Source of the DNA: Eledone cirrhosa
Lineage: Eukaryota
DNA: 64,000 nucleotides
Assembly (NCBI GenBank): GCA_964016885.1
Contig: OZ024752.1
Span: 9,114,001-9,178,000 of the forward strand
Direction: 5' to 3'
The notes below the pieces were generated by a model. The model ran no database searches, was not told the DNA's origin, and was given only the letters and a program-made list of their open reading frames with translations. Positions within the stretch are counted from its first letter, which is position 1. Each line of letters starts with the position of its first letter. A program made the position numbers and the translations under genes. Of the stretch, positions 12,764 through 47,646 are shown piece by piece.

Positions 12764-13599
12764 ATTTCCTTGGGTTGTGAGAGATGTATCACTTTTGTCA
12801 CACCAAATACCTTGTTGTTGTTTCATAACAACAAGGCCACTGGCCCTGACATGTATGATATAAAGTAGAAGGAAACTGTGCTTGAAAGGACCCATACAGC
12901 CCATGAAAGCATGAAAAAATAGATGTAAAAAGGTGATAATGATATATATATAAACCACATTTAATTTGGCTAAAATTATGTAATCTAAATAAACTCTGAA
13001 ATATTGATAATTTTCTCACTGAATTTGTTTAATTAAAATATTAAATATTAAGTATTTTGAAAAATACTTGTTTTTAAAAATCAAAAATATATGTTCTATT
13101 ATCTTCTAACATATCAGAACCTTCTGCTGTCCATCTTTCTTCATTCAAGCTATTAACAATTTACTGGTAAAAGATCAACAACCATTTACTTCTGCTTCTC
13201 GTCTTTTTCTTCTTCTTCAATGCTTCCATTAATTTAATCATATTTTCTGGATCCATCTCCTTGACTTCCATTTTTTATAATACATAATATATTTATTTTG
13301 TCATTTGATAGGATCCATTACTAATTTTTCTTGAGAAGAGATGATGTGGCAGATTCAAAGAAGAGAAAGCGAGAATGATTATGTAAGAGTATTAGAATAG
13401 GTTCTAAAGAAAGGTTGAAAGTTATGAAGTTAAAGTAAAGTTACAAAGTAATATACTTTGATATGACAATGTGATGGGCAAGTATACTTACGTGACTGAG
13501 TGAATTAGAAATAAATATTTATAAAATTAAATTATTATTCAACAAAAAAAAAAATGGGGAAAACAAAAGTTATAAGATAAATAAGTCTTTAAATAATAC

Positions 13600-13635
13600 C
13601 TACTTCCAAATAATCAAACGAATCATAGGTGTCAT
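13600..13635 (-). CDS. 36-nt micro-exon, DDTYDSFDYLEV
   Basis: Acceptor ttacaatttcag, donor GTATTA, phase 1-1, no stop. Confidence 0.75.
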   Translation of the reverse strand: MTPMIRLIIWK

Positions 13636-14080
13636 CTGAAATTGTAAGAATAAAAATATATATTATTGTATATTTTCTGAATTTCTTTTGAATATTGAAA
13701 TTCCTTCAATGCGAAAATAATTAAATTTATGACTCAAAGTTAATAATATTATTTTTAATTTTAAGGGGCTTCTTAAAAAATAAAGTTGTTTGCAAGACAA
13801 ATACATTCTAATCCTGAAGCACATATATGTTCCTCTTAAACAATTTTTACATGTATGGTATAGAGATGCAATAAATTGTATTTTCTATTCTAAAGTATGA
13901 CACACACACACACATATATATAGAATGTGTGTGTGTATGTGTGTGTGTGTGTATGTGTGTTCTAAATAGAGAAAGAGTGAGGAGGGGTTGAGGTGAATGG
14001 AGGGTGACAAATAGACAAAAATATTTTCCAAGCCTAAAGAAGAAATCAGTTTGGTTATTCTTCCTCTTCTTATTATTATT

Positions 14081-14270
14081 AGTGGTTTGGCAGCATTGGC
14101 AGAGCATCAGACACCGTGTTTTGCGGTATAGAGTTATGGCCCTTTACGTTCTGAGTTCAAATCCCGTCGAGGTTAACTTTGCCTTTCATCCTTACAGGAT
14201 GAATGGCACTGGGTAATTGCTGGCCTCGTGCCAAAAGTAGAAACAATTATTATTATTATTATTATTATTA
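14081..14270 (+). mobile_element. tRNA-derived SINE with (TTA)n tail; paralogous copies at ~26480-26670, ~32311-32503, ~38594-38788
   Basis: A-box-like TGGCAGCATTGG, B-box GTTCAAATCC, (TTA)n tail. Confidence 0.75.
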
Positions 14271-15113
14271 TCTACTTCTTTTTCTTCTTTTTCACCCACA
14301 TATTCCTGGGATGGTCATGGGAGCAAAGTCCTAAAGCATGCCTTTAATACTATTGGCATGCAGTTAGAATATCTCAAGAAAGAAACGCTGGACAGATTTT
14401 ATGGGCAAAACCAACCTTCTTCTTTGCTCACATATTTCTGGGAGAGTCATGGGGGAAGAGTTCTTAAACACTCCTTCGCGTGAGTCTGGTCAGAAGCAAG
14501 CATTTCCAACAAATCTGGCTGGATCTCCAAGCACCACCCACTATGTTAATGCATTTTATCCAACCATCTCACTCGGGGTCTACTCTGGATCTTGTGATGG
14601 TTGGTTTTGCCTATAAAATATGTCCAGCAATTCTTTCTTGAGACATTCTAACATGCCCAAAGTATTGAAGCTGTGATCTCTCAATCTAGAGAAATAACAG
14701 CTCTACCTGTAGTGCCTCTCTGATCTCTGAGCTATGCATTCTATTAAGTAACATTACTCAAAAGACCTTTCAGAGGAACCACATTTCGGCCCCTTGTTTT
14801 CACAATCGTATTCTTTCTCAGCAGAGCTGTTCTCCTAGAGAACAGGACTGCAGGTAGCAGATGGCGATAAGGTCAACATATACAATGGTTAGTTGCAATA
14901 TAATCTAGTAGCTACCAGATGTACGAGCAAACCCGGACAAAGAGCGGTACATTACGAGGGGATATGAAGCAATGGCTGACACCTGTAGCTCACAAGAAAA
15001 CTGTCACAACCCTGTGATGTAGATATGATGAGGTGAGTAAAGACCACCTCTAAAAAAGACTAGTCTTGACGGGTTTGAGAAAATACCAGATTATTGACTG
15101 GCATGAATAAGAC

Positions 15114-15574
15114 TGTAGTAAGACGCCTCACGCCTCCTGGCGGATAATGGAACAACCCTAGTTGTCTCCCCCTGGTGGAGAACACCAGAGGTAAACAGAG
15201 ACAGCCACTGAAAAGCGGAGGGAACACACGCCACAGAAAACAACCTCTGTACCACGAAACGATAAACAGCCAAGGGAACAGCAAACAGCAAACCCCACAA
15301 TACCTTTGTAATTGTAATACGCTCCTTTCACCACAACTGACCGCGTCTATATTTGGTATGTTCCATTTGTAATATAATAAACACATATAAACAAAATAGA
15401 CATCACCATTATTTACAATTGTTGAATACAACTCTCGTGGTTATTGTCTTATTTACGCACACACCCACTCACTTTGTTATAATTCTCACTTACAAAAATG
15501 GTAAATAGACGAGGGACCTTCCCTCACGTCTATGTCGATAAACAATCCAACTAGGATACATTCATTTTACCACA
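15114..15574 (+). mobile_element. Gypsy 5' LTR (461 bp)
   Basis: TGTAGTAA...TTACCACA termini, preceded by AGAC target site, followed by PBS-like ctgctgaccgacg. Confidence 0.9.
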
Positions 15575-16217
15575 CTGCTGACCGACGTAAGAATTTTACG
15601 CAGCCTTTTTATTCAGTTGAACTTCACTGTTATTGCCACGTTGCCAACCTTTTCGCAACTTATGAAAATATAAAGTGTTTATACCGTATTGACAAGGTAT
15701 ACAAACCAGCCAAAAATTTTTTCCAAGATGGCGTTGCTTTCCTTCCCCGTTTTGTAATTTTCCGCCAGGACAGGGACATTTTGGAATTGCGTGTGTGTTC
15801 CATATTTGATCAAGGGAAAGAAAAAAACTTTTTCGTGAACATTACTGCCCCGCAGGGGATATACATGCCTTACTTTTTTCTAAGGGATTTTTAGCCACAG
15901 GCTACCTATTGTTGATATCCAACGTGGATATATTCTAAAACAAACTTTTTTTTCTCTCTTTTTCATGGGTTATTTGATTTGGCTGGCTCGTTGAAGCAAC
16001 ACAAGGGGACAGACGATGGAGAAAAAAATTTTTTTAAAAAAATATTTATATGTATTTTATGTATTTTTCCTATTTCCTAATGTTTTGAATGTCTGTTTCT
16101 TTTTGACCTTTCATTTTTTTTCCATTTTGGGTGTTTGCTTTTCCCTGTGCGAGGGTACATTAATTGCTGTTTATATATATATATATATATATTTTTTTTA
16201 ATTTTAAACGTTTCAAA

Positions 16218-16982
16218 ATGAATACTCCACATTTGCCCGCCTTTACCGGAAACCCTAAGCTGTGGGTGGCCCAGCTACAGGCGTATTTTACGGTCTGTAA
16301 GACCGAGTCTGACCAGTGCCTCGCTGTCTTGATTAGCGGACTTCCCCCTAATCTAGCAGATTCGGTCCAAGACCTAATTACAGACCCCCCCCCCTCTGAC
16401 TTAACGTATGAGTCTTTGAAAGGCGAGATTTTGAGAAGGAACTGTAAGTCGGTAGAGAGTTGTTTTCGGTCATTGATCGAGGACGAACGATTAGGTGACA
16501 GGACCCCTACCGCTTTTCTCCGGCATTTGCGGGAATTGAGCGATTCCCAAGATCAGGATAGCCCTTTCCTGAAGCAATTGTTCTTCTCTCGCCTACCTCA
16601 AGAGGTACAGGCGATCCTAGCCCATATCCTAGACCACATTGCTGTCTCTGCTGACAAAATTGTAGAAGTGACGAAGAGAGACACTTCGAAGCCAAAGTAC
16701 GTTGCTTCCTCTTCTCTTCCTCAATCACGCTCATCAGCGAGTGATGAGAAATTAGTCACCACAATGGAAGCCATGACTCGTCAAATGGCGGAGTTGTGCC
16801 AGGGATTCAGGTCTTTTGGACGGCAGAGGAGCCGCTCACGATGTTATTCAACTCCTCGCCACCGTAGCCCTTCCAAAACACCAAAACCACCATATTGTTA
16901 TTACCATGACAAATATGGTGACAAAGCCGCCCGTTGTAGGCCCCCTTGTGCTTACATGGGAAACGACGACCAGAGTCACTAA
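16218..16982 (+). CDS. gag: Gypsy gag
   Basis: LPAF.GNPKLW..QLQAYF N-terminus, LGDRTPTAFLR, C-terminal CYYH...C...C knuckle; slippery G GGA AAC at 16958-16964 leading into the -1 pol frame. Confidence 0.9.
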   Translation: MNTPHLPAFTGNPKLWVAQLQAYFTVCKTESDQCLAVLISGLPPNLADSVQDLITDPPPSDLTYESLKGEILRRNCKSVESCFRSLIEDERLGDRTPTAFLRHLRELSDSQDQDSPFLKQLFFSRLPQEVQAILAHILDHIAVSADKIVEVTKRDTSKPKYVASSSLPQSRSSASDEKLVTTMEAMTRQMAELCQGFRSFGRQRSRSRCYSTPRHRSPSKTPKPPYCYYHDKYGDKAARCRPPCAYMGNDDQSH

Positions 16983-19722
16983 TGGCGGATAGTGTGCTCT
17001 GCGAAACATCATCCAACCGCCACTTTTTCAGTGAGGACCTCCTATCAGGTAGAGCCTTTCTGGTTGACACAGGTGCAGTTTGTTCAATATGGCCTGTGTG
17101 TTGTATGAAGGAGACTCCCCCTGAGACACCTATTGAGTTGCAGGCAGTAAATTGTTCGCCGATTCGAACCTTTGGACAAATCTCGCTACCTTTGCAGTTC
17201 CGTAACCTGCGGCGTGAATTTAAATGGATATTTACTGTCGCTGCCTTGCCGTATCCGATTCTAGGCGCGGATTTTCTCCACCATTTTTCATTGACGGTGG
17301 ACCTCCGTCGTAAACGCCTAATTGACGGCATCACTGGTTTAACTGTTGTTGGCAAGGCAGCAGCAGTTCCAACGGTTAGCCCGACCTTTTTTCTTGCTAA
17401 CACCGGTGATACTTACCATGCGTTGTTGAACTCGTTCCCGCAACTGACTTAGGGAAATTTTCGAGTTGATGAGCCAACTCATACCACGGAGCACTTCATA
17501 TCTACAACTGGTGCTCCCGTTTTTTCTCGTCCTCGTCGCTTGCCTCCAGACAAACTCAAAGCAGCACGATCAGAGTTTGATCATATGCTGCAGTTGGGGA
17601 TTATTCGTCCGTCCACGAGCCCGTGGGCGTCCCCATTACACATGGTACCGAAAGCGACTGGCGAATGGAGACCTACTGGAGATTATCGACGCCTAAATTC
17701 GATAACGGAACCGGACCGTTATCCTATCCCTCATCTGCAAGACTTTGCGTCTTCCTTGCAGGGATGCAAGATATTCTCCAAACTGGATTTAATTCGTGCG
17801 TACCATCAAATTCCTGTCCATAAAAATGACATTCCAAAAACGGCTATAGTTACGCCATTTGGGTCATTTGAGTTTTTGACCATGCCGTTCGGATTAAGGA
17901 ATGCCGCTAGTACGTTTCAGCGGTTTATGGATGAGGTTACTCGTGGCCTCGATTTCGTCTATACCTATATTGACGACCTGCTCATTGCTAGTTCTTCTCA
18001 AGAGCAACATACACACCATTTGAATCTTCTTTTCCGCCGATTGAAGACGTATAACGTGCAGATTAATGCACCCAAATGTGTTTTTGGTGCTGAGTCACTG
18101 ACTTTCTTGGGTCACGTCATCGACGCTGACGGTATTCGACCCCGGCCTGAGCGAGTTAAGGTCATAGAGGATTTGCCTCCACCGACCTCACTACGTCAGT
18201 TACGCCAGTTCTTAGGCCTGATTAACTTTTATAGGCGTTTCGTGCCAAATTGTGCAAGATTGCTTTTCTCCCTGACAGAAATTAAAAAAAATTGTCGGAA
18301 GAGGAACAAAGACATTTCTTTGACCGACACTCAACTTGCTGATTTTCAGCACGCCAAAACTGCTTTGGCTAATGCTTCATTACTGACTCACCCGGTACCC
18401 GGTGCAAAGCTAACGCTTTGTGTTGATGCATCGGATATCGCTGTGGGCGCAGTGCTACAGCAAAACATCAATGGTTACCAGCAACCGCTGGAGTTTTTTT
18501 CCAGAAAGCTGAAACCTGCTGAGACGCGCTACAGAACCTTTGGAAGAGAGCTTTTGGCCATCTATTTGGCCGTGAAACATTTTTCACATATGCTAGAGGG
18601 TAGACTATTTACTATCCTCACTGACCATAAACCATTGACTATTGCGTTGAGAGCGAAGGCTGATAAATACTCGCCCAGAGAGACGAGACACCTTGATTTC
18701 ATCTCGCAATATACGAATGATATCCAACACATTCCGGGTTTACTAAATACAGCGGCCGATGCCTTGTCCCGCTTACTCGTGACAGCGATCTCGTCATCCT
18801 CTGACATAGATCTGACTCGTTTGGCTGCGGATCAGCCTCCCCTTGAGTCATTGGATGTTACATTGCCCAAGTTTGCGAATTGCGAGATGAAATACTTGCC
18901 TCTGTCGACTGCAGTTGGCCAAATTCTCTGCAACGTCTCTTTGGACGTGCCTAGGCCCTTCGTTCCAGAGAATCATCGTCGGACCGTGTTTCTGGCATTA
19001 CATGGTTTCTCGCATCCAGGATCTTCTGCCACAGCAAAGCTCATATCAGCTAGATTTTTCTGGCCAAATATGAGGCGTGAAATTGCTGCTTGGTGCCGTT
19101 CCTGCTTCTCTTGCCAGAAATCAAAGGTCCATCGACACGTCAAGGCTCCCCTGGGTACCTTTACTAACCCAGATGCGCGTTTTTCGCACATCCATATTGA
19201 TATAGTGGGACCTTGGCCTGTCAGCGATGGTTATTCTTATCTGCTGACCATAATTGACCGTTTTTCGAGATAGCCTGAAGCCATCCCCTTGAAAAACATC
19301 ACCGCTGAGACAACAGCGCGTGCTCTTGTGTCTGGATGGATCTCTCGTTATGGAGTTCCATTCACAGTAACTACCGACCGTGGACGACAGTTCGAGTCGA
19401 GCCTTTTCCTCGAACTATCAAAATTAATTGGTGCTAAACGCATCAGAACTACGGCGTACCATCCCGCTTCGAATGGTATGGTAGAGCGTTTTCACCGACA
19501 ACTGAAGGCCTCCTTAATGGCTTCGGCGCATTGGAGCGAGTACCTCCCTATTGTGCTACTAGGGATTCGGTCAATGGTGAAGGTCGACTTTGGATTTTCA
19601 CCGGCTGAAGTACTGTACGGTGCCCCTCTGACGTTGCCCGGGCAAATGCTTGCCCCTATCGATCTTGATGCCCAAGATCACGCTTCCTACGTGTCCCGTT
19701 TGCGCTCCTATTTCCAGGATTT
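16946..19722 (+). pseudogene. pol: Gypsy pol (protease-RT-RNaseH-integrase), two in-frame TAG stops and a truncated integrase C-terminus
   Basis: LVDTGA, YIDD, DASD/RELLA, HHCC zinc finger and DDE core, all in one frame with stops at 17450-17452 and 19271-19273. Confidence 0.95.
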
Positions 19723-19880
19723 GAGGGGATATGAAGCAATGGCTGACACCTGTAGCTCACAAGAAAACTGTCACAACCCTGTGATGTAGATATGATGAGT
19801 TGAGTAAAGACCACCTCTAAAAAAGACTAGTCTTGACGGGTTTGAGAAAATACCAGATTATTGACTGGCATGAATAAGAC

Positions 19881-20344
19881 TGTAGTAAGACGCCTCACGC
19901 CTCCTGGTGGATAATGGAACAACCCTAGTTGTCTCCCCCTGGTGGAGAACACCAGAGGTAAACAGGGACAGCCACTGAAAAGCAGAGGGAACACACGCCA
20001 CAGAAAACAACCTCTGTACCACAAAACGATAAACAGCCAAGGGAACAGCAAACAGCAAACCCCACAATACCTTTGTAATTGTAATACGCTCCTTTCACCA
20101 CAACTGACCGCGTCTATATTTGGTATGTTCCATTTGTAATATAATAAACACATATAAACAAAATAAACATCACCATTATTTACAATTGTTGAATATAACT
20201 CTCGTTGTGGTTATTGTCTTGTTTACGCACACACCCACTCACTTTGTTATAATTCTCACTTACAAAAATGGTAAATAGACGAGGGACCTTCCCTCACGTC
20301 TATGTCGATAAACAATCCAACTAGGATACATTCATTTTACCACA
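19881..20344 (+). mobile_element. Second LTR copy, flanked on both sides by AGAC and preceded by host left flank (solo-LTR-like)
   Basis: 19723-19880 repeats host flank 14956-15113; AGAC TSD on both sides. Confidence 0.9.
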
Positions 20345-20625
20345 AGACCACCAAAACTGCAATATGGTGAGAGCTAAGAAAAAGAATCATACTGCATTGT
20401 CTTTCACATTGAATATCAAGGGATGTATTCAGGCCTTAGACAGTGGGGCATGTTCAAAGAATATATTAGTCTCCATTACATGCCGTGAAAACTGGTGATG
20501 TGTCTGCAACCTGTCCTGGGAGGAGTGGCATGGATGCACAAAGATTGTGTATCTCGAGACTCCAAAGAGTGTTTGAAATGGAGCAAACATTGACTGTTTG
20601 GTATTTAGTTTTTCAAATATATATA

Positions 20626-22177
20626 TACCTGGCATTCGTCGATCTTGAGAAAGCCTTTGAAAGAGTTCCACGTGCTGTAATGTGGTGGGCTCTTAGAAAA
20701 CTAGGAGTAGATGAAGGGCTTGTGAAAGCGGTACAGGCCATGTATAGGGGAGCAGTCAGCAAAGTTAGGATTAGCAATGAGTATAGCGAGGGATTTAGCG
20801 TACAGGTTGGGGTCAACCAGGGCTCTGTTCTTAGCCCCCTCCTGTTCATCATAGTCCTGCAGGCAATAACGGAGGAGTTTAAGACTGGATGCCCATGGGA
20901 ACTCCTGTATGCTGATGACCTCGCACTTATAGCTGAATCTATGGTAGAACTAGAGATGAAATTCCAAACTTGGAACCAGGGACTAGAAAGAAAGGGTCTC
21001 AAAGTCAACATGACAAAGACTAACGTCCTTGTAAGTAGACGAGATAACAGAGCCCAGATATCCTCAGGGAAATGGCCTTGCTCAGTATGTAGGAAAGGTG
21101 TATGTAGGAACTCCATTCTCTGCCCCAAATGCAAACAATGGGTACACAAGAGATGTAGCGGGATCTCAGGAAGCTTAATTAAGAATGTAGGCTTCACATG
21201 CAGCAGTTGTGCTGGGACAGCAAGCAGCAAACAGCCACAGGAAACAAGTACCACCAATATCTGGGAGGGCTCTGTAGAAACAGTAGACAGCTTCTGCTAC
21301 CTAGGTGACCGAATTAGCAGCGGAGGTGGGTGTTCAGAAAGTACAATAACTAAGGTAAGAACGGGATGGAAGAAGTTTAGGGAACTACTTCCACTGCTAG
21401 CTGCAAAAGGCTTCTCCTTCAAAATGAAAGGCAGACTGTATGATGCGTGTATCCGAACAGCGATGTTGCATGGTAGTGAGACCTGGGCGCTGAAGGTGGA
21501 AGACTTACGTAGATTAGAGAGAAACGAAGCCTGCATGCTCCGATGGATGTGTAATAGTAATATACGTGAACAACAAAGCATAAATGAATTGAGCGAGAGA
21601 CTGAGCATAAGAGGAATCAAATGCCGTGTGCAGGAGAGGCGGTTGCATTGGTATGGATATGTGATGCGTATGAAGGATGACAGCTGCATAAAAAGGTGCA
21701 GAGCACTAGAAGTCGATGGTAACCACGGAGTGGGGAGACCCAAGATGACCTGGGATGAGGTGATAAAAGCCGACCTTACCCAATTACACCTCTCAAAGGC
21801 GATGACACACGACTGTGAACTCTGGCGTCACGCAGTAATACAGAGTACCCGACCTCCCATGGGTACAAGCTGAAGCATATAGACAATATGCCCCCCCCCC
21901 CACTGCAAGTTGGTCGTGGAGGTGCCACGGCAAAAAAAGCACCCAGCCCACACTGTAAAGTGGATGTGTAGGCGCCACAAAAAAGCACCCAGCACTCACT
22001 GTAAATGAGGTTGGTGTTAGGAAGGGCATCCAGCTGTAGAAATCAAGCCAAAATCAGTTCTTGTATGAGCAAGGCATGGTCAGCCGACCAGACACTGCCC
22101 ACAACAGGACAACCCCTCTAACCTATGCTAGCCTGGAAGAACAGACGTAAAATGGTGATGATGATGATGATGATGAT
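20626..22177 (+). mobile_element. 5'-truncated RTE-clade LINE (RT, PHD-like finger, (GAT)n tail)
   Basis: FVDLEKAF, QGSVLSP, LYADD, LHGSETW motifs; (GAT)n 3' tail; empty site at ~39902-39913. Confidence 0.93.
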
Positions 22178-22679
22178 GCATAGCACAGAGATTAGAATAG
22201 CTACTGTTAGGGCCATTACTTCTCTGATAGTATGGACATGAGATCAGAATGTTAAAGTAAAGAATCATTCCACAGATTTTATAGGAAAAACCAACTGGCA
22301 GAACACCCAGTGGTAGACCCCAGAAACAAGATGTTTGGATGAGATTCATGAGCTCAACTAGTAATGCTTGGGGATCCAGCTGGATCAATTGAAAACATTT
22401 ACTTCTGACAGGATCCACTCGAAGGCATGCTTCAGGATTTGCCTCCATGACCCTCTCAGGAATAAGTTGAAGAAGAGGAAAATGAAGAAGAGAATTGAGA
22501 AGGTGATGGTGGTGGAGAGGAAGAAGAAGAAGAAGACAATTAGTTTGAGTCTCATTAGTTGTATCTTAGAAACAATTAATAGTAGGCTCAAAATAATACT
22601 CAACAGTCCATATACACAACAAATACTCAGCTTTTACATTCTCCAAGTGGTTAACTTATAGCTGTACTCCAGTAGTTCA

Positions 22680-23540
22680 TATAAAAAGAAAAATACCGCC
22701 TAGAATACCTGGAGAAAGTCACGTTTCTCCCAAAACTGTGCAGTGTTCTTCCAGCATCATAACTTTTGTAAATCTACTATTCAAAGTGTGAAGGGAGCCT
22801 CTCTATATAAAAGAGCTCTCAAAATTTTCTAGCTTCCCAAACAGCATTTAATTTGCCTGGTTTCTTGCTAAAATTATGGCTACCAATTTTTCAGAATTCT
22901 CATTTCCTCTACTCCTCAAACAATAGTTCTGTGAACAGCTCTCTCAAGGAGAAAGCCTTCACCTTTGCCGTCCACTTTGTATGCGGCTCCACCCTACACA
23001 TACATAGTGAATCTCCACTCTATCCCATATGAAACCCTGCCCTTCATTCATAAACACCAAATACCATGTTGCTTTGTTTCATAACAATAAGGCCACTGCC
23101 CCTGACAATGAATATGTTTCCCTTGTTCACCCTGACATACTAAACAACATCTAGAAAATAGCTACTCTGCTATTCAATTTAAAGTCACTCATTGACACAC
23201 TACAGCCTCAGATCCACAGACATGATGTCTTCCCTCTCTCTGTCTCTTATACCATTACTGCAATGATCTCTTCTCCTTGAAACTTGCTAGTTTCTTACCA
23301 CCTCAACACTTAATTCCCTTACCTCTCCTTGTTGTGTCCAGGCCTCACACTAACCACTACCCTCAGTCCTTCTTGCCCACAACATTTATATTATGGAACT
23401 CAACCTCTCTTCATGTCTTTCCAGATGGAGTAGACATGAACAATCTTAAACAAAACACCAATAGCATCAATCTCTTTGGTCCCTGAAGACCTGTTAAGGC
23501 CTTGGGAAATTCCCTTCTTACAGACCTACCAAGTAAAACA
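22680..23540 (+). mobile_element. Degenerate CR1/Jockey-like LINE relic, repeated in each duplication unit
   Basis: YPQSFLPTT..LWNS...HVFP resembles the C-terminus of CR1/Jockey-group RT ORFs. Confidence 0.5.
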
Positions 23541-26012: not shown

Positions 26013-26048
26013 CTAGTTCCAAATAACCAATCGTATCATAGAACTCAT
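26013..26048 (-). CDS. 36-nt micro-exon, DEFYDTIGYLEL
   Basis: Acceptor taatatttcag, donor GTATTA, phase 1-1. Confidence 0.75.
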   Translation of the reverse strand: MSSMIRLVIWN

Positions 26049-29337: not shown

Positions 29338-31829
29338 GCATAGCACAGAGATTAGAATAGCTACTGTTAGGGCCATTACTTCTCTGATAGTATGGACATG
29401 AGATCAGAATGTTAAAGTAAAGAATCATTCCACAGAATTTATAGGAAAAACCAACTGGCAGAACACCCAGTGGTAGACCCCACAAACAAGATGTTTGGAT
29501 GAGATTCATGAGCTCAACTAGTAATGCTTGGGGATCCAGCTGGATCAATTGAAAACATTTACTTCTGACAGGATCCACTCGAAGGCATGCTTCAGGATTT
29601 GCCTCCATGACCCTCTCAGGAATAAGTTAAAGAAGAGGAAAATGAAGAAGAGAATTGAGAAGGTGATGGTGGTGGAGAGGAAGAAGAAGACAATTAGTTT
29701 GAGTCTCATTAGTTGTATCTTAGAAACAATTAATAGTAGGCTCAAAATAATACTCAACATTCCATATACACAACAAATACTCAGCTTTTACATTCTCCAA
29801 GTTGTTAACTTATAACTGTACTCCAGTAGTTCATATAAAAAGAAAAATACCGCCTAGAATACCTGGAGAAAGTCACGTTTCTCCCAAAACTGTGCAGTGT
29901 TCTTCCAGCATCATAACTTTTGTAAATCTACTATTCAAAGTGTGAAGGGAGCCTCTCTATATAAAAGAGCTCTCAAAATTTTCTAGCTTCCCAAACAGCA
30001 TTTAATTTGCATGGTTTCTTGCTAAAATTATGGCTACCAATTTTTCAGAATTCTCATTTCCTCTACTCCTCAAACAATAGTTCTGTGAACAGCTCTCTCA
30101 AGGAGAAAGCCTTCACCTTTGCCGTCCACTTTGTATGCGGCTCCTCCCTACACATACATAGTGAATCTCCACTCTATCCCATATGAAACCCTGCCCTTCA
30201 TTCATAAACACCAAATACCATGTTGCTTTGTTTCATAACAATAAGGCCACTGGCCCTGACAATGAATATGTTTCCCTTGTTCACCCTGACATCCTAAACA
30301 ACATCTAGAAAATAGCTACTCTGCTATTCAATTTAAAGTCACTCATTGACACACTACAGCCTCAGATCCACAGACATGATGTCTTCCCTGTCTCTGTCTC
30401 TTATACCATTACTGCAATGATCTCTTCTCCTTGAAACTTGCTAGTTTCTTACCACCTCAACACTTAATTCCCTTACCTCTCCTTGTTGTGTCCAGGCCTC
30501 ACACTAACCACTACCCTCAGTCCTTCTTGCCCACAACATTTATATTATGGAGCTCAACCTCTCTTCATGTCTTTCCAGATGGAGTGGACATGAACAATCT
30601 TAAACAAAACACCAATAGCATCAATCTCTTTGGTCCCTGAAGACCTGTTAAGGCCTTGGGAAATTCCCTTCTTACAGACCTACCAAGTAAAACAATAAAT
30701 ACTTACTTTTAGGAGTGTTTGGATCAGTAACATAAATATCCCTGGTAGCAGCAGAAGCTTTATCTATAAGAGATGAAATGAAAAATGAGTATATGTACTG
30801 CTTGTGTTGCTTGATATCTAAGGGCTACAGGGAAATGAAGTGGGCATGATCATATGGATGTGTGATGTTAATGTACATGATTGACAAAGCATGGACGAGT
30901 TGAGAGGAAAACTATGTATAAGAGTAATCAAATGGATGATGATCATTGAAGCAAGAAATGTTAAGAGAGACAAGAGGAAGAAAGATGCAGTAGAGGAAGA
31001 CTGAGGAGGATTTCGGTAGATGTGGGGAGATCTGATCTCAGCAGACTGAACCTCACAGAAGAGATTATGAATGTATGATATAAAGTAGAAGGAAACTGTA
31101 CTTGAAAGGACCCATGCAGCCCATGAAAGCATGAAAAAATAGATGTAAAAAGGTGATAATGATATATATATAAACAACATTCAATTTGGCTAAAATTATG
31201 TAATCTAAATAAACTCTGAAATATTGATAATTTTTTCACTGAATTTGTTTATTTGTTTAATTAAAATATTAAATGTTAAGTATTTTGAAAAATACTTGTT
31301 TTTAAAAATCAAAAATATATATTCTATTATCTTCTAACATATCAGAACCATCTGCTGTCCATCTTTCTTCATTCTAGCTATTAACAATTTACTGGTAAAA
31401 GATCAACAACCATTTACTTCAGCTTCTTGTCTTTTTTCTTCTTCTTCAATGCTTCCATTAATTTAATCATATTTTCTGGATCCATCTCCTTGACTTCCAT
31501 TTTTTATAATACATAATATATTTATTTTGTCATTTGATAGGATCCATTACTAATTTTTCTTGAGAAGAGATGATGTGGCAGATTGAAAGAAGAGAAAGCG
31601 AGAATGATTATGTAAGAGTATTAGAATAGGTTCTAAAGAAAGGTTGAAAGTTATGAAGTTAAAGCAAAGTTACAAAGTAATATACTTTGATATGACAATG
31701 TGATGGGCAAGTATACTTACGTGACTGAGTGAATTAGAAATAAATATTTATAAAATTAAATTATTATTCAACAAAAAAAAAAAATGGGGAAAACAAAAGT
31801 TATAAGATAAATAAGTCTTTAAATAATAC

Positions 31830-31865
31830 CTAGTTCCAAATAATCAATCGTTTCATAGATGTGAT
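31830..31865 (-). CDS. 36-nt micro-exon, DHIYETIDYLEL
   Basis: Acceptor taatatttcag, donor GTATTA, phase 1-1. Confidence 0.75.
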   Translation of the reverse strand: MTSMKRLIIWN

Positions 31866-33345
31866 CTGAAATATTAAGAATAAAAATATATATTATTGTA
31901 TATTTTTTGAATTTCTTTTGAATATTGAAATTCCTTCAATGCGAAAATAATTAAATTTATGACTCAAAGTTAATAATATTATTTTTAATTTTAAGGGGCT
32001 TCTTAAAAAATAAAGTTGTTTGCAAGACAAATACATTCTAATCCTGAAGCACATATATGTTCCTCTTAAACAATATTTACATGTATGGTATAGAGATGCA
32101 ATAAATTGTATTTTCTATTCTAAAGTATGACACACACACACACATATATATAGAATGTGTGTGTTTATGTGTGTGTGTGTGTATGTGTGTTCTAAATAGA
32201 GAAAGAGTGAGGAGGGGTTGAGGTGAATGGAGAGCGACAAATAGACAAAAATATTTTCCAAGCCTAAAGAAGAAATCAGTTTGGTTATTCTTCCTCTTCT
32301 TATTATTATTAGTGGTTTGGCAGGATTGGTAGAGCATCAGACACCATGTTTTGTGGTATAGAGTTATGGCCCTTTACGTTCTGAGTTCAAATCCCGTCGA
32401 GGTTAACTTTGCCTTTCATCCTTACAGGATGAATGGCACTGGGTAATTGCTGGCCTCGTGCCAAAAGTAGAAACAATTATTATTATTATTATTATTATTA
32501 TTATCTACTTCTTTTTCTTCTTTTTCACCCACATATTCCTGGGATGGTCATGGGAGCAAAGTCCTAAAGCATGCCTTTGATACTATTGGCATGCAGTTAG
32601 AATATCTCAAGAAAGAAACGCTGGACAGATTTTATGGGCAAACCAACCTTCTTCTTTGCTCACATATTTCTCAGAGAGTCATGGGGGAAGAGTTCTTAAA
32701 CACTCCTTCGGGTGAGTCTGGTCAGAAGCAAGCATTTCCAACAAATCTGGCTGGATCTCCAAGCACCACCCACTATGTTAATGCATTTTATCCAACCATC
32801 TCACTCGGAGTCTACTCTGGATCTTGTGCTGGTTGGTTTTGCCTATAAAATATGTCCAGCAATTCGTTCTTGAGACATTCTAACATGCCCAAAGTATTGA
32901 AGCTGTGATGTCTCAATCTAGAGAAATAACAGCTCTACCTGTAGTGCCTCTCTGATCTCTGAACTATGCATTCTATTAAGTAACATTACTCAAAAGACCT
33001 TTTAGAGGAACCACATTTCGGCCCCTTGTTTTCACAATCGTATTCTTTCTCAGCAGAGCTGTTCTCCTAGAGAACAGGACCGCAGTTAGCAGATGGCGAT
33101 AAGGTCACCAGATACAATGGTTAGTTGCAATATAATCTAGTAGCTACCAGATGTACGAGCAAACCCAGACAAAGAGCGGTACATTACGAGGGGATATGAA
33201 GCAATGGCTGACACCTGTAGCTCACAAGAAAACTGTCACAACCCTGTGATGTAGATATGATGAGGTGAGTAAAGACCACCTCTAAGAAAGACTAGTCTTG
33301 ACGGGTTTGAGAAAATACCAGATTATTGACTGGCATGAACAAGAC

Positions 33346-33806
33346 TGTAGTAAGACGCCTCACGCCTCCTGGCGGATAATGGAACAACCCTAGTTGTCTC
33401 CCCCTGGGGGAGAACACCAGAGGTAAACAGAGACAGCCACTGAAAAGCGGAGGGAACACACGCCAAAGAAAACAACCTCTGTACCACAAAACGATAAACA
33501 GCCAAGGGAACAGCAAACAGCAAACCCCACAATACCTTTGTAATTGTAATACGCTCCTTTCACCACAACTGACCGCGTCTATATTTGGTATGTTCCATTT
33601 GTAATATAATAAACACATATAAACAAAATAAACATCACCATTATTTACAATTGTTGAATATAACTCTCGTGGTTATTGTCTTGTTTACGCACACACCCAC
33701 TCACTTTGTTATAATTCTCACTTACAAAAATGGTAAATAGACGAGGGACCTTCCCTCACGTCTATGTCGATAAACAATCCAACTAGGATACATTCATTTT
33801 ACCACA
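33346..33806 (+). mobile_element. Gypsy solo LTR
   Basis: 461 bp, TG...CA, AGAC TSD on both sides. Confidence 0.93.
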
Positions 33807-34087
33807 AGACCACCAAAACTGCAATATGGTGAGAGCTAAGAAAAAGAATCATACTGCATTGTCTTTCACATTGAATATCAAGGGATGTATTCAGGCCTTA
33901 GACAGTGGGGCATGTTCAAAGAATATATTAGTTTCCATTACATGCCGTGAAAACTGGTGATGTGTCTGCAACCTGTCCTGGGAGGAGTGGCATGGATGCA
34001 CAAAGATTGTGTATCTCGAGACTCCAAAGAGTGTTTGAAATGGAGCAAACATTGACTGTTTGGTATTTAGTTTTTCAAATATATATA

Positions 34088-35622
34088 TACCTGGCATTCG
34101 TCGATCTTGAGAAAGCCTTTGACAGAGTTCCACGTGCTGTAATCTGGTGGGCTCTTAGAAAACTAGGAGTAGAAGAAGGGCTTGTGAAAGCGGTACAGGC
34201 CATGTATAGGGGAGCAGTCAGCAAAGTTAGGATTAGCAATGAGTATAGCGAGGGATTTAGTGTACAGGTTGGGGTCCACTAGGGCTCTGTTTTTAGCCCC
34301 CTCCTGTTCATCATAGTCCTGCAGGCAATAACGGAGGAGTTTAAGACCGGATGCCCATGGGAACTCCTGTATGCTGATGACCTCGCACTTATAGCTGAAT
34401 CTATGGTAGAACTAGAGAAGAAATTCCAAACTTGGAACCAGGGACTAGAAAGAAAGGGTCTCAAAGTCAACATGACAAAGACTAACGTCCTTGTAAGTAG
34501 ACGAGAAAACAGAACCTAGATATCCTCAGGGAAATAGCACTTGCTCATTATGTAGGAAAGGTGTAGGTAGGAACTCCATTCTCTGCCCCAAATGCAAACA
34601 ATGGGTACACAAGAGATGTAGCGGGATCTCAGGAAGCTTAATTAAGAATGTAGGCTTCACATGCAGCAGCTGTGCTGGGACAGCAAACAGCCACAGGAAA
34701 CAAGTACCACCAATCTCTGGGTGGGCTCTGTAGAAACAGTAGACTGCTTCTGCAACCTAGGTGACCGAATTAGCAGCGGAGGTGGGTGTTCAGAAAGTAC
34801 AATAACTAGGGTAAGAACGGGATGGAAGAAGTTTAGGGAACTACTACCACTGCTAGCTGCAAAAGGCTTCTCCCTCAAAATGAAAGGCAGACTATATGAT
34901 GCGTGTATCTGAACAGCGATGTTGCATGGTAGAGAGACCTGGGCGCTGAAGGTGGAAGACTTATGTAGATGAGAGAGAAACGAAGCCTACATGCTCCGAC
35001 GGATGTGTAATAGTAACATACGTGAACAACAAAGCATAAATGAATTGAGCGAGAGACTGAGCATAAGAGGAATCAAATGCTGTGTGCAGGAGAGGCGGTT
35101 GCGTTGGTATGGACATGTGATGCGTATGAAGGATGACAGCTGCATAAAAAGGTGCAGAGCACTAGAAGTCGATGGTAACCACGGCGTGGGGAGACCCAAG
35201 ATGACGTGGGATGAGGTGATAAAAGCCGACCTTACCCAATTACACCTCTCAGAGGCGATGACACACGACCGTGAACGCATTAATAGAGAGTACCCGACCT
35301 CCCATGGGTACAAGCTGAAGCATATAGACAATATGCCCCCACACTCCCCACTGCAAGGTGGTCGTGGAGGTGCCACGGCAAAATAGGCACCCAGCCCACA
35401 CTGTAAAGTGGACGTGTAGGCGCCACGAAAAAGCACCCAGCACTCACTGTAAATGAGGTTGGTGTTAGGAAGTGCATCCAGCTGTAGAAATCAAGCCAAA
35501 TCAGTTCCTGTATGAGCAAGGCATGGTCAGCCGACCAGACACTGCCCACAACAAGACAACCCCTCTAATCCATGCTAGCGTGGAAGAACGGACGTAAAAC
35601 GGTGATGATGATGATGATGATG
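34088..35622 (+). mobile_element. RTE LINE, duplicated and degraded copy
   Basis: Paralog of 20626-22177 with several stops and indels. Confidence 0.92.
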
Positions 35623-38114
35623 CATAGCACAGAGATTAGAATAGCTACTGTTAGGGCCATTACTTCTCTGATAGTATGGACATGAGATCAGAATGTTAAA
35701 GTAAAGAATCATTCCACAGAATTTATAGGAAAAACCAACTGGCAGAACACCCAGTGGTAGACCCCACAAACAAGATGTTTGGATGAGATTCATGAGCTCA
35801 ACTAGTAATGCTTGGGGATCTAGCTGGATCAATTGAAAACATTTCCTTCTGACAGGATCCACTCGAAGGTATGCTTCAGGATTTGCCTCCATGACCCTCT
35901 CAGGAATAAGTTGAAGAAGAGGAAAATGAAGAAGAGAATTGAGAAGGTGATGGTGGTGGAGAGGAAGAAGAAGAAGAAGACGATTAGTTTGAGTCTCATT
36001 AGTTGTATCTTAGAAAAAATTAATAGTAGGCTCAAAATAATACTCAACATTCCATATACACGACAAATACTTAGCCTTGAAATTCTCCAAGTGGTTAACT
36101 TATAGCTGTACTCCAGTAGTTCAGATAAAAAGAAAAATAATGCTTAGAATACCTGCAGAAAGTCACCTTTCTCCCAAAACTGTGCAGTGTTCTTCCAGCA
36201 TCATAACTTTTGTAAATCTACTATTCAAAGTGTGAAGGGAGCCTCTCTATATAAAAGAGCTCTCAAAGCTTTCTAGCTTCCCAAACAGCATTTAATTTGC
36301 CTGGTTTCTTGCTAAAATTATGGCTACCAATTTTTCAGAATTCTCATTTCCTCTACTCCTCAAACAATAGTTCTGTGAACAGCTCTCTCAAGGAGAAAGC
36401 CTTCACCTTTGCTGTCCACTTTTTATGCGACTCCACCCTACACATACATAGTGAATCTCCACTCTATCCCATATGAAACCCTGCCCTTCATTCATAAACA
36501 CCAAATACCATGTTGCTTTGTTTCATAACAATAAGGCCTCTGGCCCTGACAATGAATATGTTTCCCTTGTTCACCCTGACATCCTAAACAACGTCTAGAA
36601 AATAGCTACTCTGCTATTCAATTTAAAGTCACTCATTGACACACTACAGTCTCAGATCCACAGACATGATGTCTTCCCTCTCTCTGTCTCTTATACCATT
36701 ACTGCAATGATCTCTTCTCCTTGAAACTTGCTAGTTTCTTACCACCTCAACACTTAATTCCCTTACCTCTCCTTGTTGTGTCCAGGCCTCACACTAACCA
36801 CTACCCTCAGTCCTTCTTGCCCACAAATTTATATTATGGAACTCAACCTCTCTTCATGTCTTTCCAGTTGGAGTGGACATGAACAATCTTAAACACCAAT
36901 AGCATCAATCTCTTTCGTCCCTGAAGACCTGTTAAGGCCTTGGGAACTGTCCCTTCTTACAGACCTACCAAGTAAAACAATAAATACTTACTTTTAGGAG
37001 TGTTTGGATCATTAACATAAATATCCCTGGCAGCAGCAGAGGCTTTATCTATAAGAGATGAAATGAAAAATGAGTATATGTACTGCTTGTGTTGCTTGAT
37101 AACTGAAGGCTACAGGGAAATGAAGTGGGCATGATCATATGGATGTGTGATGTTAATGTACATGATTGACAAAGCATGGACGAGTTGAGAGGAAAACTAT
37201 GTATAAGAGTAATCAAATGGATGATGATCATTGAAGCAAGAAATGTTAAGAGAGACAAGAGGAAGAAAGATGCAGTAGAGGAAGACTGAGGAGGGCTTCG
37301 GTAGATGTGGAGACATCTGATCTCAGCAGACTGAACCTCACAGAAGAGATTATGGATGTATGATATAAAGTAGAAGGAAACTGTGCTTGAAAGGACCCAT
37401 ACAGCCCATGAAAGCATGAAAAAATAGATGTAAAAAGGTGTTAATAATATATATATAAACAACATTCAACTTGGCTAAAATTAAGTAATCTAAATAAACT
37501 CTGAAATATTGATAATTTTTTCACTGAATTTGTTTATTTGTTTAATTAAAATATTAAATATTAAGTATTTTGAAAAATACTTGTTTTTAAAAATCAAAAA
37601 TATATGTTCTATTATATTCTAACATATCAGAACCATCTGCTGTCCATCTTTCTTCATTCTAGCTATTAACAATTTACTGGTAAGAAGATCAACAACCATT
37701 TACTTCAGCTTCTTGTCTTTTTTCTTCTTCTTCAATGCTTCCATTAATTTAATCATATTTTCTAGATCCATCTCCTTGACTTTCATTTTTTATAATACAT
37801 AATATGTTTATTTTGTCATTTGATAGGATTCATTACTAATTTTTCTTGAGAAGAGATGATGTGGCAGATTGAAAGAAGAGAAAGCGAGAATGATTATGTA
37901 AGAGTATTAGAATAGGTTCTAAAGAAAGGTTGAAAGTTATGAAGTTAAAGCAAAGTTACAAAGTAATATACTTTGATATGACAATGTGATGGGCAAGTAT
38001 ACTTAAGTGACTGAGTGAATTAGAAATAAATATTTATAAAATTAAATTATTATTCAACAAAAAAAAAAATGGGGAAAACAAAAGTTATAAGATAAATAAG
38101 TCTTTAAATAATAC

Positions 38115-38150
38115 CTTGTTCCAAATAATCAATCGTTTCATAGAACTCAT
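38115..38150 (-). CDS. 36-nt micro-exon, DEFYETIDYLEQ
   Basis: Acceptor taatatttcag, donor GTATTA, phase 1-1. Confidence 0.75.
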
Positions 38151-41100
38151 CTGAAATATTAAGAATAAAAATATATATTATTGTATATTTTTTGAATTTC
38201 TTTTGAATATTGAAATTCCTTCAATGCGAAAATAATTAAATTTATGACTCAAAGTTAATAATATTATTTTTAATTTTAAGGGGCTTCTTAAAAAATAAAG
38301 TTGTTTGCAAGACAAATACATTCTAATCCTGAAGCACATATATGTTCCTCTTAAACAATATTTACATGTATGGTATAGAGATGCAATAAATTGTATTTTC
38401 TATTCTAAAGTATGACACACACACACACATATATATAGAATGTGTGTGTGTATGTGTGTGTGTGTGTGTGTGTTCTAAATAGAGAAAGAGTGAGGAGGGG
38501 TTGAGGTGAATGGAGGGTGACAAATAGACAAAAATATTTTCCAAGCCTAAAGAAGAAATCAGTTTGGTTATTCTTCCTCTTCTTATTATTATTAGTGGTT
38601 TGGCAGGATTGGTAGAGCAACAGACACCATGTTTTGCGGTATAGAGTTATGGCCCTTTACGTTCTGAGTTCAAATCCCGTCGAGGTTAACTTTGCCTTTC
38701 ATCCTTACAGGATGAATGGCACTGGGTAATTGCTGGCCTCGTGCCAAAAGTAGAAACAATTATTATTATTATTATTATTATTATTATCTACTTCTTTTTC
38801 TTCTTTTTCACCCACATCTCCCTGGGATGGTCATGGGAGCAAAGTCCTAAAGCATGCCTTTAATACTATTGGCTTGCAGTTAGAATATCTCAAGAAAGAA
38901 ACGCTGGACAGATTTTATGGGCAAACCAACCTTCTTCTTTGCTCACATATTTCTCAGAGAGTCATGGGGGAAGAGTTCTTAAACACTCCTTCGCGTGAGT
39001 CTGGTCAGAAGCAAGCATTTCCAACAAATCTGGCTGGATCTCCAAGCACCACCCACTATGTTCATGCATTTTATCCAACCATCTCACTCGGGGTCTACTC
39101 TGGATCTTGTGCTGGTTGGTTTTGCCTACAAAATATGTCCAGCAATTCTTTCTTGAGACATTCTAACATGCCCAAAGTATTGAAGCTGTGATCTCTCAAT
39201 CTAGAGAAATAACAGCTCTACCTGTAGTGCCTCTCTGATCTCTGAGCTATGCATTCTATTAAGTAACATTACTCAAAAGACCTTTCAGAGGAACCACATT
39301 TCGGCCCCTTGTTTTCACAATCGTATTCTTTTATCAGCAGAGCTGTTCTCCTAGAGAACAGGACCGCAGGTAGCAGATGGCGATAAGGTCACCAGAAACA
39401 ATGGTTAGTTGCAATATAATCTAGTAGCTGCCAGATGTACGAGCAAACCCGGACAAAGAGCGGTACATTACGAGGGGATATGAAGCAATGGCTGACACCT
39501 GTAGCTCACAAGAAAACTGTCACAACCCTGTGATGTAGATAGATATGATGAGGTGAGTAAAGACCACCTCTAAAAAAGACTAGTCTTGACGGGTTTGAGA
39601 AAATACCAGATTATTGACTGGCATGAATAAGACCACCAAAACTGCAATATGGTGAGAGCTAAGAAAAAGAATCATACTGCATTGTCTTTCACATTGAATA
39701 TCAAGGGATGTATTCAGGCCTTAGACAGTGGGGCATGTTCAAAGAATATATTAGTCTCCATTACATGCCGTGAAAACTGGTGATGTGTCTGCAACCTGTC
39801 CTGGGAGGAGTGGCATGGATGCACAAAGATTGTGTATCTCGAGACTCCAAAGAGTGATCAAAATTGAGCAAACATTGACTGTTTGGTATTTAATTTTTCA
39901 AATATATATATATGCATAGCCCAGAGATTAGAATAGCTACTTTTAGGGCCATTACTTCTCTGATAGTATGGACATGAGATCAGAATGTTAAAGTAAAGAA
40001 TCATACCACAGAATTTATAGGAAAAACCAACTGGCAGAACACCCAGTGGTAGACCCCACAAACAAGATGTTTGGATGAGATTCATGAGCTCAACTAGTAA
40101 TGCTTGGGGATCCAGCTGGATCAATTGAAAACATTTCCTTCTGACAGGATCCACTCGAAGGCATGCTTCAGGATTTGCCTCCATGACCCTCTCAGGAATA
40201 AGTTGAAGAAGAGGAAAATGAAGAAGAGAATTGAGAAGGTGATGGTGGTGGAGAGGAAGAAGAAGAAGAAGACGATTAGTTTGAGTCTCATTAGTTGTAT
40301 CTTAGAAAAAATTAATAGTAGGCTCAAAATAATACTCAACATTCCATATACACAACAAATACTTAGCCTTGAAATTCTCCAAGTGGTTAACTTATAGCTG
40401 TACTCCAGTAGTTCAGATAAAAAGAAAAATAATGCCTAGAATACCTGCAGAAAGTCACCTTTCTCCCAAAACTGTGCAGTGTTCTTCCAGCATCATAACT
40501 TTTGTAAATCTACTATTCAAAGTGTGAAGGGAGCCTCTCTATATAAAAGAGCTCTCAAAGCTTTCTAGCTTCCCAAACAGCATATAATTTGCCTGGTTTC
40601 TTGCTAAAATTATGGCTACCAATTTTTCAGAATTCTCATTTCCTCTACTCCTCAAACAATAGTTCTGTGAACAGCTCTCTCAAGGAGAAAGCCTTCACCT
40701 TTGCTGTCCACTTTTTATGCGACTCCACCCTACACATACATAGTGAATCTCCACTCTATCCCATATGAAACCCTGCCCTTCATTCATAAACACCAAATAC
40801 CATGTTGCTTTGTTTCATAACAACAAGGCCACTGGCCCTGACAATGAATATGTTTCCCTTGTTCACCCTGACATCCTAAACAACATCTAGAAAATAGCTA
40901 CTCTGCTATTCAATTTAAAGTCACTCATTGACACACTACAGCCTCAGATCCACAGACATGATGTCTTCCCTCTCTCTGTCTCTTATACCATTACTGCAAT
41001 GATCTCTTCTCCTTGAAACTTGCTAGTTTCTTACCACCTCAACACTTAATTCCCTTACCTCTCCTTGTTGTGTCCAGGCCTCACACTAACCACTACCCTC

Positions 41101-47626: not shown

Positions 47627-47646
47627 TTACATATCTTTTTTGATAG
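47627..47646 (-). CDS. Candidate alternative exon after the TM exon (AIKKDM*, or a 16-nt phase 1-2 exon ending at 47631)
   Basis: Strong acceptor ttttatttttttcag; possible donor GTAAAT. Confidence 0.35.

What the first reader, a model, noticed from the sequence alone, without database searches (positions are those of the whole stretch)
13540..38210. Micro-exons are hypervariable with only non-synonymous differences while flanking intron is near-identical
Hand counts over 36 nt: 13600 vs 26013 differ at 7 sites, 26013 vs 31830 at 5, 31830 vs 38115 at 4 and 26013 vs 38115 at 3. Every variable codon changes the amino acid (D/E/H, T/F/I, D/E, S/T, F/I, D/G, V/L/Q) and both tyrosines are invariant. 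The ~60 nt of intron on each side are identical among the three upstream copies apart from A-run length, and the 13600 copy differs at ~3 sites. Changes cluster around the tyrosines, including pY+1 to +3, which set SH2 specificity. Inference: diversifying selection on docking specificity, or intron homogenisation by gene conversion with exon differences retained. The pattern also argues that these are real exons.
Basis: partly seen in the sequence, partly recalled or inferred. Interest (0 to 1): 0.85.

Follow-up and report, generated by a model that had tools for sequence, protein, structure and literature searches.

The report
Octopus receptor's fast-evolving tyrosine micro-exons
An uncharacterised octopus cell-surface receptor carries four tandem copies of a tiny signalling exon that differ from one another about eight times more than the surrounding intron, which suggests selection is retuning its docking sites, although splicing of the copies is not yet shown.

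Summary
Observation confirmed. The four 36-nt minus-strand exons differ at 7, 5, 4 and 3 sites as stated. 10 of 36 exon columns vary against 75 of 2204 intron columns (Fisher 4e-7; scan permutation 5 of 20000). All 10 changes are non-synonymous, but that alone is not significant (P about 0.15).

The exons lie in the cytoplasmic tail of an octopod multi-Ig single-pass receptor. Two sister loci on the same contig carry one copy and three identical copies, so the sequence is no intrinsic hotspot. The family's second Ig domain shows the same pattern with more power: 51.5 non-synonymous against 4.5 synonymous changes over 7 copies, pN/pS 3.7.

Best reading: a cassette expanded by unequal crossing-over, with a selected divergence peak against homogenising conversion. 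Most single copies encode an ITIM (6 of 8). The 12-residue period would create ITAM spacing if copies splice in line. No RNA evidence was obtained, and each unit also holds a candidate short terminal exon, so in-line use is open. No paper on this family was found in six searches.

The parts
38115..38150 (-). Micro-exon D (first in transcript order), DEFYETIDYLEQ; second tyrosine lacks the +3 hydrophobic residue
31830..31865 (-). Micro-exon C, DHIYETIDYLEL; ITIM consensus met
26013..26048 (-). Micro-exon B, DEFYDTIGYLEL; ITIM consensus met
13600..13635 (-). Micro-exon A (last), DDTYDSFDYLEV; closest to the copies in the sister loci; Phe at -2 misses the ITIM consensus
41916..41972 (-). 57-nt phase-1 linker exon of the tail; present in both sister loci
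50030..50134 (-). Transmembrane exon; three copies in the genome, 99% alike with flanks
54235..54561 (-). Ig domain exon D3 (Pfam C2-set_2 E 2e-6, C1-set E 1e-5)
47627..47646 (-). Unresolved acceptor followed by six codons and a stop, resembling the start of the post-transmembrane exon of relatives; identical over 111 nt in sister locus g3, not found in g2; would give a tail-less form if used
   Evidence: function inferred
12985..12995 (-). Candidate 3-codon terminal exon; further copies at 24051-24061, 25395-25405, 31205-31215 and 37490-37500, one per unit
   Evidence: analogy to the 3-residue terminal exon; not shown to be used
41480..41503 (-). Core of the interspersed element that starts each unit; 6 copies (41503, 37438, 31153, 25343, 23999, 12933) bracket the four exons and one exon-less fragment
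12847..41503 (-). Whole tandem array: units of about 4.1, 6.3, 5.8, 1.3 (no exon) and 11 kb, 96-98% alike
14956..20344 (+). LTR retroelement inside unit A (622-nt direct repeats, 98% alike); solo repeat in unit C and a shared partial remnant in B and D, which groups B with D

Best explanation
The four stretches are phase-1 cassette exons of the cytoplasmic tail of an octopod multi-Ig, single-pass receptor. SHOWN from sequence: gene order signal peptide, Ig domains, transmembrane, linker, micro-exons; copy number 1, 3 and 4 in three related loci; an interspersed element on both sides of the cassette even in the one-copy locus. INFERRED: unequal crossing-over between those two element copies expands and contracts the cassette; exchange between copies keeps the introns alike; selection for different residues around the two tyrosines builds and protects a narrow divergence peak in the exon. 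INFERRED function: after phosphorylation by a Src-type kinase each exon offers two SH2 docking sites (YxxI/F and YLEL/V/Q), and copy number, copy sequence and exon skipping tune which effectors are recruited and how strongly. The receptor most likely works in non-self or pathogen recognition, because its V-like domain is under clear diversifying selection.
For: Exon rate about 8 times the intron rate, and the excess survives a scan correction. About 1 change is expected at some 30 non-synonymous sites at the intron rate of 76 per 2204, against 10 seen (hand arithmetic). Three copies in sister locus g2 are identical although their units are only 96.3-97.5% alike, so there is no intrinsic hotspot. 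No donor turned up: a degenerate 33-nt pattern with 2 mismatches finds only the 8 known copies. Same signature in Ig domain D2: 7 copies, minimum 51.5 non-synonymous against 4.5 synonymous changes, pN/pS 3.7, binomial P 8e-4. Three D2 copies in g3 differ at 16, 8 and 11 exon sites while their flanks differ at 0, 2 and 2 of about 590-600. Control domain D3 has pN 0.031 and pS 0.032. Exon sharing is mosaic (B with D at codons 2-3, C with D at codon 5), which points to exchange between units. Relatives have annotated isoforms that skip single-tyrosine tail modules.
Against: No transcript evidence for this gene. dN/dS within the micro-exon has no power (about 6 synonymous sites; P about 0.15). Two of the four copies (A, D) have lost the ITIM consensus, which could be decay. 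Each unit carries a candidate terminal exon, so C, B and A may lie beyond the stop. A possible earlier stop exon at 47627-47646 could remove the tail altogether. The changes are few and mostly conservative (D/E, S/T, I/F). One genome gives no population or between-species data. g1 and g3 could be uncollapsed alleles.
Confidence: 0.55

Rival explanations
1. Imported tract without selection on the tail: the 5' part of the B/C/D exon and its acceptor were copied by gene conversion from an older, diverged paralogue that is lost or unassembled, and later shuffled among the units.
For: B, C and D share intronic changes next to the exon (13643, 13644, 13677) as well as two exon changes. The YETI motif of C and D also occurs in tails of more distant relatives (P0004, P0012). 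Exon-proximal DNA is unusually alike between loci, for example 99% around the transmembrane exon, which points to conversion. There is a 200-N gap in the gene.
Against: No donor within 2 mismatches in the genome. An old tract should bring about 2 synonymous differences and none is seen (weak, P about 0.15). Three changes are private to single copies among B, C and D and postdate any single import.
Confidence: 0.2
2. Silent or decaying copies: only one exon copy is translated, the rest lie after a terminal exon or are skipped, and the cluster is a chance excess noticed afterwards.
For: A candidate terminal exon sits in every unit. A and D have lost the ITIM consensus. The non-synonymous-only pattern is not significant. 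No RNA data.
Against: Relaxed constraint can raise the rate only to the intron rate, not 8-fold above it; scan P is 5 of 20000. Splice sites and frame are intact in 8 of 8 copies.
Confidence: 0.13
3. Local mutational hotspot or repair artefact at this 36-mer.
For: The changes are tightly clustered and include neighbouring sites.
Against: The same sequence is unchanged in three g2 copies and differs by one base in g3. The cluster matches the exon borders except for two acceptor bases. It recurs at surface patches of a different exon.
Confidence: 0.06
4. Assembly effect: alleles or haplotypes placed in tandem, so that exon differences are allelic rather than between copies.
For: Units are 96-98% alike, and g3 is 95-98.5% alike to this gene over about 37 kb on the same contig.
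Against: Four different exon versions exceed the two alleles of a diploid. Units carry nested structural markers (full LTR element, solo repeat, shared partial remnant) and clean junctions. The window has no N.
Confidence: 0.06

Closest known systems
Uncharacterised octopod multi-Ig receptors (O. sinensis LOC115212114, LOC115212116, LOC115212249; O. bimaculoides LOC106874069, LOC106869178, LOC106879981; Argonauta GAB1598814.1)
   Same: 56-58% identity in D3 and 53-63% in D2; same domain order, similar transmembrane segment, tails built of repeated tyrosine modules with skipped-module isoforms.
   Different: Their modules are mostly 14 or 20 residues with one tyrosine; here the module is 12 residues with two. 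This gene has only D3 between the D1-D2 pairs and the membrane. No function is annotated, and six locus ids found no paper.
Peak of divergence under gene conversion, human red/green opsin exon 5 (PMC3924837, passages); bovine CEACAM32 (PMC7042247, passages)
   Same: Exon more divergent than flanking introns between duplicates, read as selection resisting homogenisation.
   Different: Here the duplicates are exons inside one gene, the peak is 36 nt, and it lies in an intracellular signalling motif rather than a ligand-facing region. The species-versus-paralogue tree test used for opsins could not be run.
Hydractinia Alr family (10.1101/2022.03.04.482883, passages) and Botryllus FcoR (PMC12582321, passages)
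   Same: Lineage-specific Ig receptors with ITIM/ITAM-type tails. FcoR3 and FcoR4 alleles and splice forms swap ITIM and hemITAM, including a Phe at -2 that breaks the ITIM, as in copy A here.
   Different: No homology was found to these proteins in the searches run. No allorecognition locus or phenotype is known here. Amplification of a motif exon in tandem was not described in the passages read.
Oyster CgIgR (PMC6994640, passages)
   Same: Molluscan multi-Ig receptor whose ITAM recruits Syk, so the pathway exists in molluscs.
   Different: One ITAM in a conventional tail; not among the homologues returned; no exon array described in the passages read.

Membership tests
Octopod uncharacterised multi-Ig receptor family (LOC115212114-like) | Homologous D1, D2 and D3 Ig-like domains | tested here: met
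   D3 56-58% identical, E down to 6e-27; D2 53-63%; D1 found by tblastn
Octopod uncharacterised multi-Ig receptor family (LOC115212114-like) | Signal peptide, single transmembrane helix, tail of short tyrosine modules | tested here: met
   exon joins are predicted, not observed
ITIM-bearing receptor | [I/L/V/S]xYxx[I/V/L] in the tail (definition from 10.1101/2022.03.04.482883) | tested here: met
   Met in 2 of 4 window copies (B, C) and 4 of 4 sister copies; not met in A and D
ITIM-bearing receptor | Phosphorylation-dependent recruitment of SHP/SHIP and inhibition | not testable with these tools
   needs biochemistry
ITAM-bearing receptor | Yxx[I/L]-x6-9-Yxx[L/I] in one polypeptide | tested here: inconclusive
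   Not met within one exon (spacing 1). Met across adjacent exons with spacing 8 in 3 of 6 possible tyrosine pairings in this gene and 4 of 4 in g2, but only if copies splice in line, which is unshown
ITAM-bearing receptor | Syk/Shark tandem-SH2 recruitment | not testable with these tools
   needs phosphopeptide binding
Peak of divergence under conversion (opsin type) | Exon divergence significantly above flanking intron between duplicates | tested here: met
   for the micro-exon; for D2
Peak of divergence under conversion (opsin type) | Introns group by species while exons group by orthologous copy | not testable with these tools
   no sister genome available (one search states no relatives held)
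Positive selection on the micro-exon | dN/dS significantly above 1 | tested here: inconclusive
   10 non-synonymous, 0 synonymous, P about 0.15; significant only against the intron rate (and hand arithmetic)
Dscam-type mutually exclusive exon array | One copy per transcript, chosen from the array | not testable with these tools
   no RNA data; docking/selector pairing was not searched
Alr / FcoR allorecognition receptors | Homology and linkage to a histocompatibility phenotype | tested here: inconclusive
   None named among the hits (P0029 and P0030 carry no name; P0031 and P0033 were not looked up); phenotype not testable
V-set-like Ig domain (D2) | Ig V-type fold | tested here: inconclusive
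   Model pLDDT 65.9, all-beta, Cys25-Trp35-Cys89 pattern; best structural matches are Ig domains such as CRTAM and antibody/TCR chains but none at E <= 0.001; no Pfam hit

The most novel reading that the evidence does not exclude
Exon copy number acts as a polarity switch. One 36-nt exon encodes an ITIM, and because its period is 12 residues, two copies spliced in line place YxxI eight residues before YxxI and YxxL eight residues before YxxL, which is ITAM spacing. Unequal crossing-over and exon skipping would then move an octopus Ig receptor between inhibitory (one copy, g3) and activating (three or four copies, g2 and this gene) states, with selection tuning the new ITAMs. Joined to hypervariable, tandemly repeated V-like domains, this would be an undescribed cephalopod paired-receptor system for non-self recognition.
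Probability: 0.2. Interest if true: 0.85.

Novelty: new variant of a known kind. Interest (0 to 1): 0.6.

Why it matters
Positive selection in immune-type receptors is normally seen on the ligand-facing domain. A divergence peak inside a 36-nt intracellular phosphotyrosine exon, in a receptor whose V-like domain is also diversifying, suggests that signalling output is being retuned as fast as recognition. The family is annotated only as 'uncharacterised' in the octopus and argonaut records returned. It therefore offers a concrete candidate for a diversified cephalopod non-self receptor, and a natural series of one, three and four motif copies on which an ITIM-to-ITAM switch can be tested directly.

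Tried and rejected
RNA: no RNA holder listed, and no reads were laid, so splicing is untested.

A candidate longer terminal exon near 12260-12376 was rejected because the g2 copy is one base shorter in an A-run.

The automatic scan for other phase-symmetric exons gave repeat-derived candidates (24 and 33 nt in the duplicated element, plus two singletons) that were not pursued.

Flank divergences that involve g2, g1a or downstream microsatellite are spoiled by insertions and were not used; only the g3 trio was used for the exon-versus-flank contrast. D1 dN/dS was not computed because the script machine was lost.

A test of how far g1-g3 likeness extends hit a high-copy repeat and was uninformative. 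Structure search of D2 gave no match at E <= 0.001. No complex prediction was sent, since unphosphorylated peptides would not inform. Earlier findings of the scan: none returned. One search was an empty check with no bearing.

Literature: searches returned 0 papers. Searches listed 10, 12 of 14, 5 and 15 of 18 papers, none on this family by title or abstract start. Subscription papers are not searched and no supplement was opened, so a gene table could list these loci.

Full report
1. The observation. The four stretches are at 13600-13635 (A), 26013-26048 (B), 31830-31865 (C) and 38115-38150 (D) on the minus strand, each flanked by TTTCAG and GTATT. Pairwise differences are A-B 7, A-C 6, A-D 8, B-C 5, B-D 3 and C-D 4. 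In 60 nt on each side B, C and D differ at 0 of 120 columns and A at 3 of 120. Against the whole shared 2.27-kb block, which is a stricter background than the near-invariant flanks, 10 of 36 exon columns vary against 75 of 2204 (Fisher P 4.1e-7). The best other 36-column window has 6, and 5 of 20000 permutations gave a window of 10 or more. All 10 changes alter the residue and both tyrosines are kept. By hand from the site counts these two facts have P about 0.15 and 0.12, so they add little. The real signal is the rate: about 1 change expected at the intron rate, 10 seen.

2. The gene. Upstream on the minus strand lie a 57-nt linker exon (41916-41972), a transmembrane exon (50030-50134) and an Ig exon D3 (54235-54561; Pfam C2-set_2 and C1-set), all phase 1 and mutually in frame. 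Beyond the window, on contig C12, are three D2 and two D1 exons and one signal-peptide exon; a 200-N gap may hide a third D1. The closest named homologues are uncharacterised Octopus and Argonauta proteins, so the genome is inferred to be an octopod; the species was not determined. Their tails are strings of tyrosine modules. Eight RefSeq isoforms of O. bimaculoides LOC106874069 differ only by 14- and 20-residue modules and by an alternative last exon, one of which codes for three residues. Nine of the 15 listed records for the LOC106869178 cluster were aligned and show the same. That RefSeq isoforms rest on transcript data is recalled, not checked. This is indirect support that such micro-exons are real and skippable.

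3. Sister loci. Genome searches find exactly 8 micro-exon copies, 3 transmembrane exons, 2 D3 exons and 7 close D2 exons plus one distant hit. Locus g2 (C12, 39.22-39.29 Mb) has eight Ig domains and three identical micro-exons (DDTYDSIDYLEL) in units 96.3-97.5% alike. Locus g3 (C12, 5.39-5.44 Mb) has three D1-D2 pairs, no D3, and one micro-exon (DDTYDSIDYLEV). With g2 as outgroup, A is near the ancestral state and 8 of the 10 changes fall in B, C and D. The exon is therefore not a general hotspot; the burst is specific to the extra copies of this gene. g3 is 95-98.5% alike to this gene and could be a paralogue or an uncollapsed allele; one search did not settle it.

4. How the array arose. An interspersed element begins at 41503, 37438, 31153, 25343, 23999 and 12933, one more copy than there are units. 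The copy after the linker is about 92% alike to the others. The one-copy locus g3 has the element on both sides of its exon. Unequal crossing-over between these two copies is the simplest route to 1, 3 or 4 cassettes (inference). An LTR element is full length in unit A, a solo repeat in C and a shared remnant in B and D. This groups B with D, in line with exon codons 2-3, whereas codon 5 groups C with D. The conflict indicates exchange between units.

5. Independent evidence for selection. Seven D2 copies need at least 51.5 non-synonymous and 4.5 synonymous changes (233.5 and 75.5 sites; pN/pS 3.7; binomial P 7.9e-4). This count ignores recombination and uses a minimum-spanning estimate. The three g3 copies differ at 16, 8 and 11 exon sites, many as adjacent doublets, while about 300 nt upstream are identical and about 300 nt downstream differ at 0, 2 and 2 sites. 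The variable residues cluster at 28-38, 42-56 and 90-99. On a moderate-confidence model these follow the first Cys strand, span the C-C'-C'' region and follow the second Cys; equating them with CDR-like loops is my inference. D3, compared between g1 and g2, has pN equal to pS (0.03). This raises the prior that the tail peak is selected too, but does not prove it.

6. Motifs. With the definitions quoted in 10.1101/2022.03.04.482883 (passages), B, C and all four sister copies carry an ITIM around the second tyrosine; A (Phe at -2) and D (Gln at +3) do not. No single exon is an ITAM. The period of 12 residues, however, puts like tyrosines of adjacent copies at spacing 8. If spliced in line, D-C gives YETI-x8-YETI, and C-B gives YETI-x8-YDTI and YLEL-x8-YLEL. 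The other three pairings fail, and g2 meets the pattern in 4 of 4. An ITAM-Syk pathway exists in oyster (PMC6994640, passages), and ITIM/hemITAM swaps by allele and splicing occur in Botryllus FcoR (PMC12582321, passages).

7. What stays open. Each unit holds a candidate acceptor with three codons and a stop (5 copies), like the short last exon of relatives, so the copies may be alternative ends, or C, B and A may be silent. A further acceptor at 47646 leads to a stop after six codons and could give a tail-less form. An imported tract from a lost donor is not excluded: B, C and D share three intronic changes beside the acceptor, although no donor was found. No transcript evidence was obtained.

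8. Comparison and verdict. The evolutionary signature is a known kind, the peak of divergence under gene conversion (PMC3924837 and PMC7042247, passages). The receptor works like the lineage-specific Ig receptors of Hydractinia and Botryllus without shown homology. What differs is the place of the peak, a 36-nt intracellular motif exon repeated inside one gene, and the family, for which six searches found no paper; subscription journals and supplements were not seen. Verdict: observation confirmed, interpretation partly supported, new variant of a known kind, interest 0.6. Selection under conversion 0.55; the ITIM-to-ITAM copy-number switch 0.2, worth 0.85 if true.

Noticed in passing
G000:C12:9179521-9211790 (L011-L014) and C12:5416970-5433226 (L036-L038): The N-terminal D1-D2 Ig pair is itself tandemly repeated (three D2 and at least two D1 here, three pairs in g3, one in g2) behind a single signal-peptide exon. 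D2 is under strong diversifying selection with identical flanks in g3. The pairs may be in line or alternative cassettes.
   Followed up: partly
G000:C12:39220000-39293000 (L022-L029) against this gene and g3: Stalk length differs: g2 has eight Ig domains, this gene keeps only D3 after the D1-D2 pairs, and g3 goes from D2 straight to the transmembrane exon.
   Followed up: partly
window 14956-20344: LTR retroelement with 98%-alike 622-nt repeats and gag-, protease-, RT-, RNase H- and integrase-like frames interrupted by stops; present in g3 too by collinear match. Gag and protease labels are recalled; RT, RNase H and integrase come from Pfam.
   Followed up: partly
window 47627-47646: Acceptor followed by six codons and a stop, identical over 111 nt in g3 and not found in g2; a possible tail-less isoform or broken post-transmembrane exon.
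   Followed up: partly
window 49990-50300 and 13440-13800: Exon-proximal DNA is far more alike between g1 and g2 (about 97-99%) than the rest of their introns (about 93%), suggesting conversion centred on exons or strong splicing constraint.
   Followed up: partly
window 24000-25343: A 1.3-kb partial unit that has the boundary element and the candidate terminal exon but no micro-exon.
   Followed up: partly
G000:C1:171633792-171634049 (L054); proteins P0028, P0032: A distant D2-like exon (35% identity). Octopus proteins with D2-like and D1-like domains in tandem suggest a second, older branch of the family.
   Followed up: no
window 1469-3636, 8328-8570, 12417-12764; 58-bp arrays near the D1 exons: Minisatellite arrays (37, 48, 55, 42 and 58 bp periods) around the gene; the 37/48-bp array recurs upstream of the gene and downstream of g2, and may promote rearrangement.
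   Followed up: no
window 42500-46500 and 52070-64000: Several decayed copies of LINE-like reverse-transcriptase elements in both orientations; class judged by eye, not scanned.
   Followed up: no
proteins P0003, P0004, P0013, P0019, P0027: Tails of relatives repeat YVNV/YANV, YxCM/YxxM and YAEV-x4-YLEL modules, which resemble Grb2- and PI3K-type docking motifs (motif assignments recalled).
   Followed up: no
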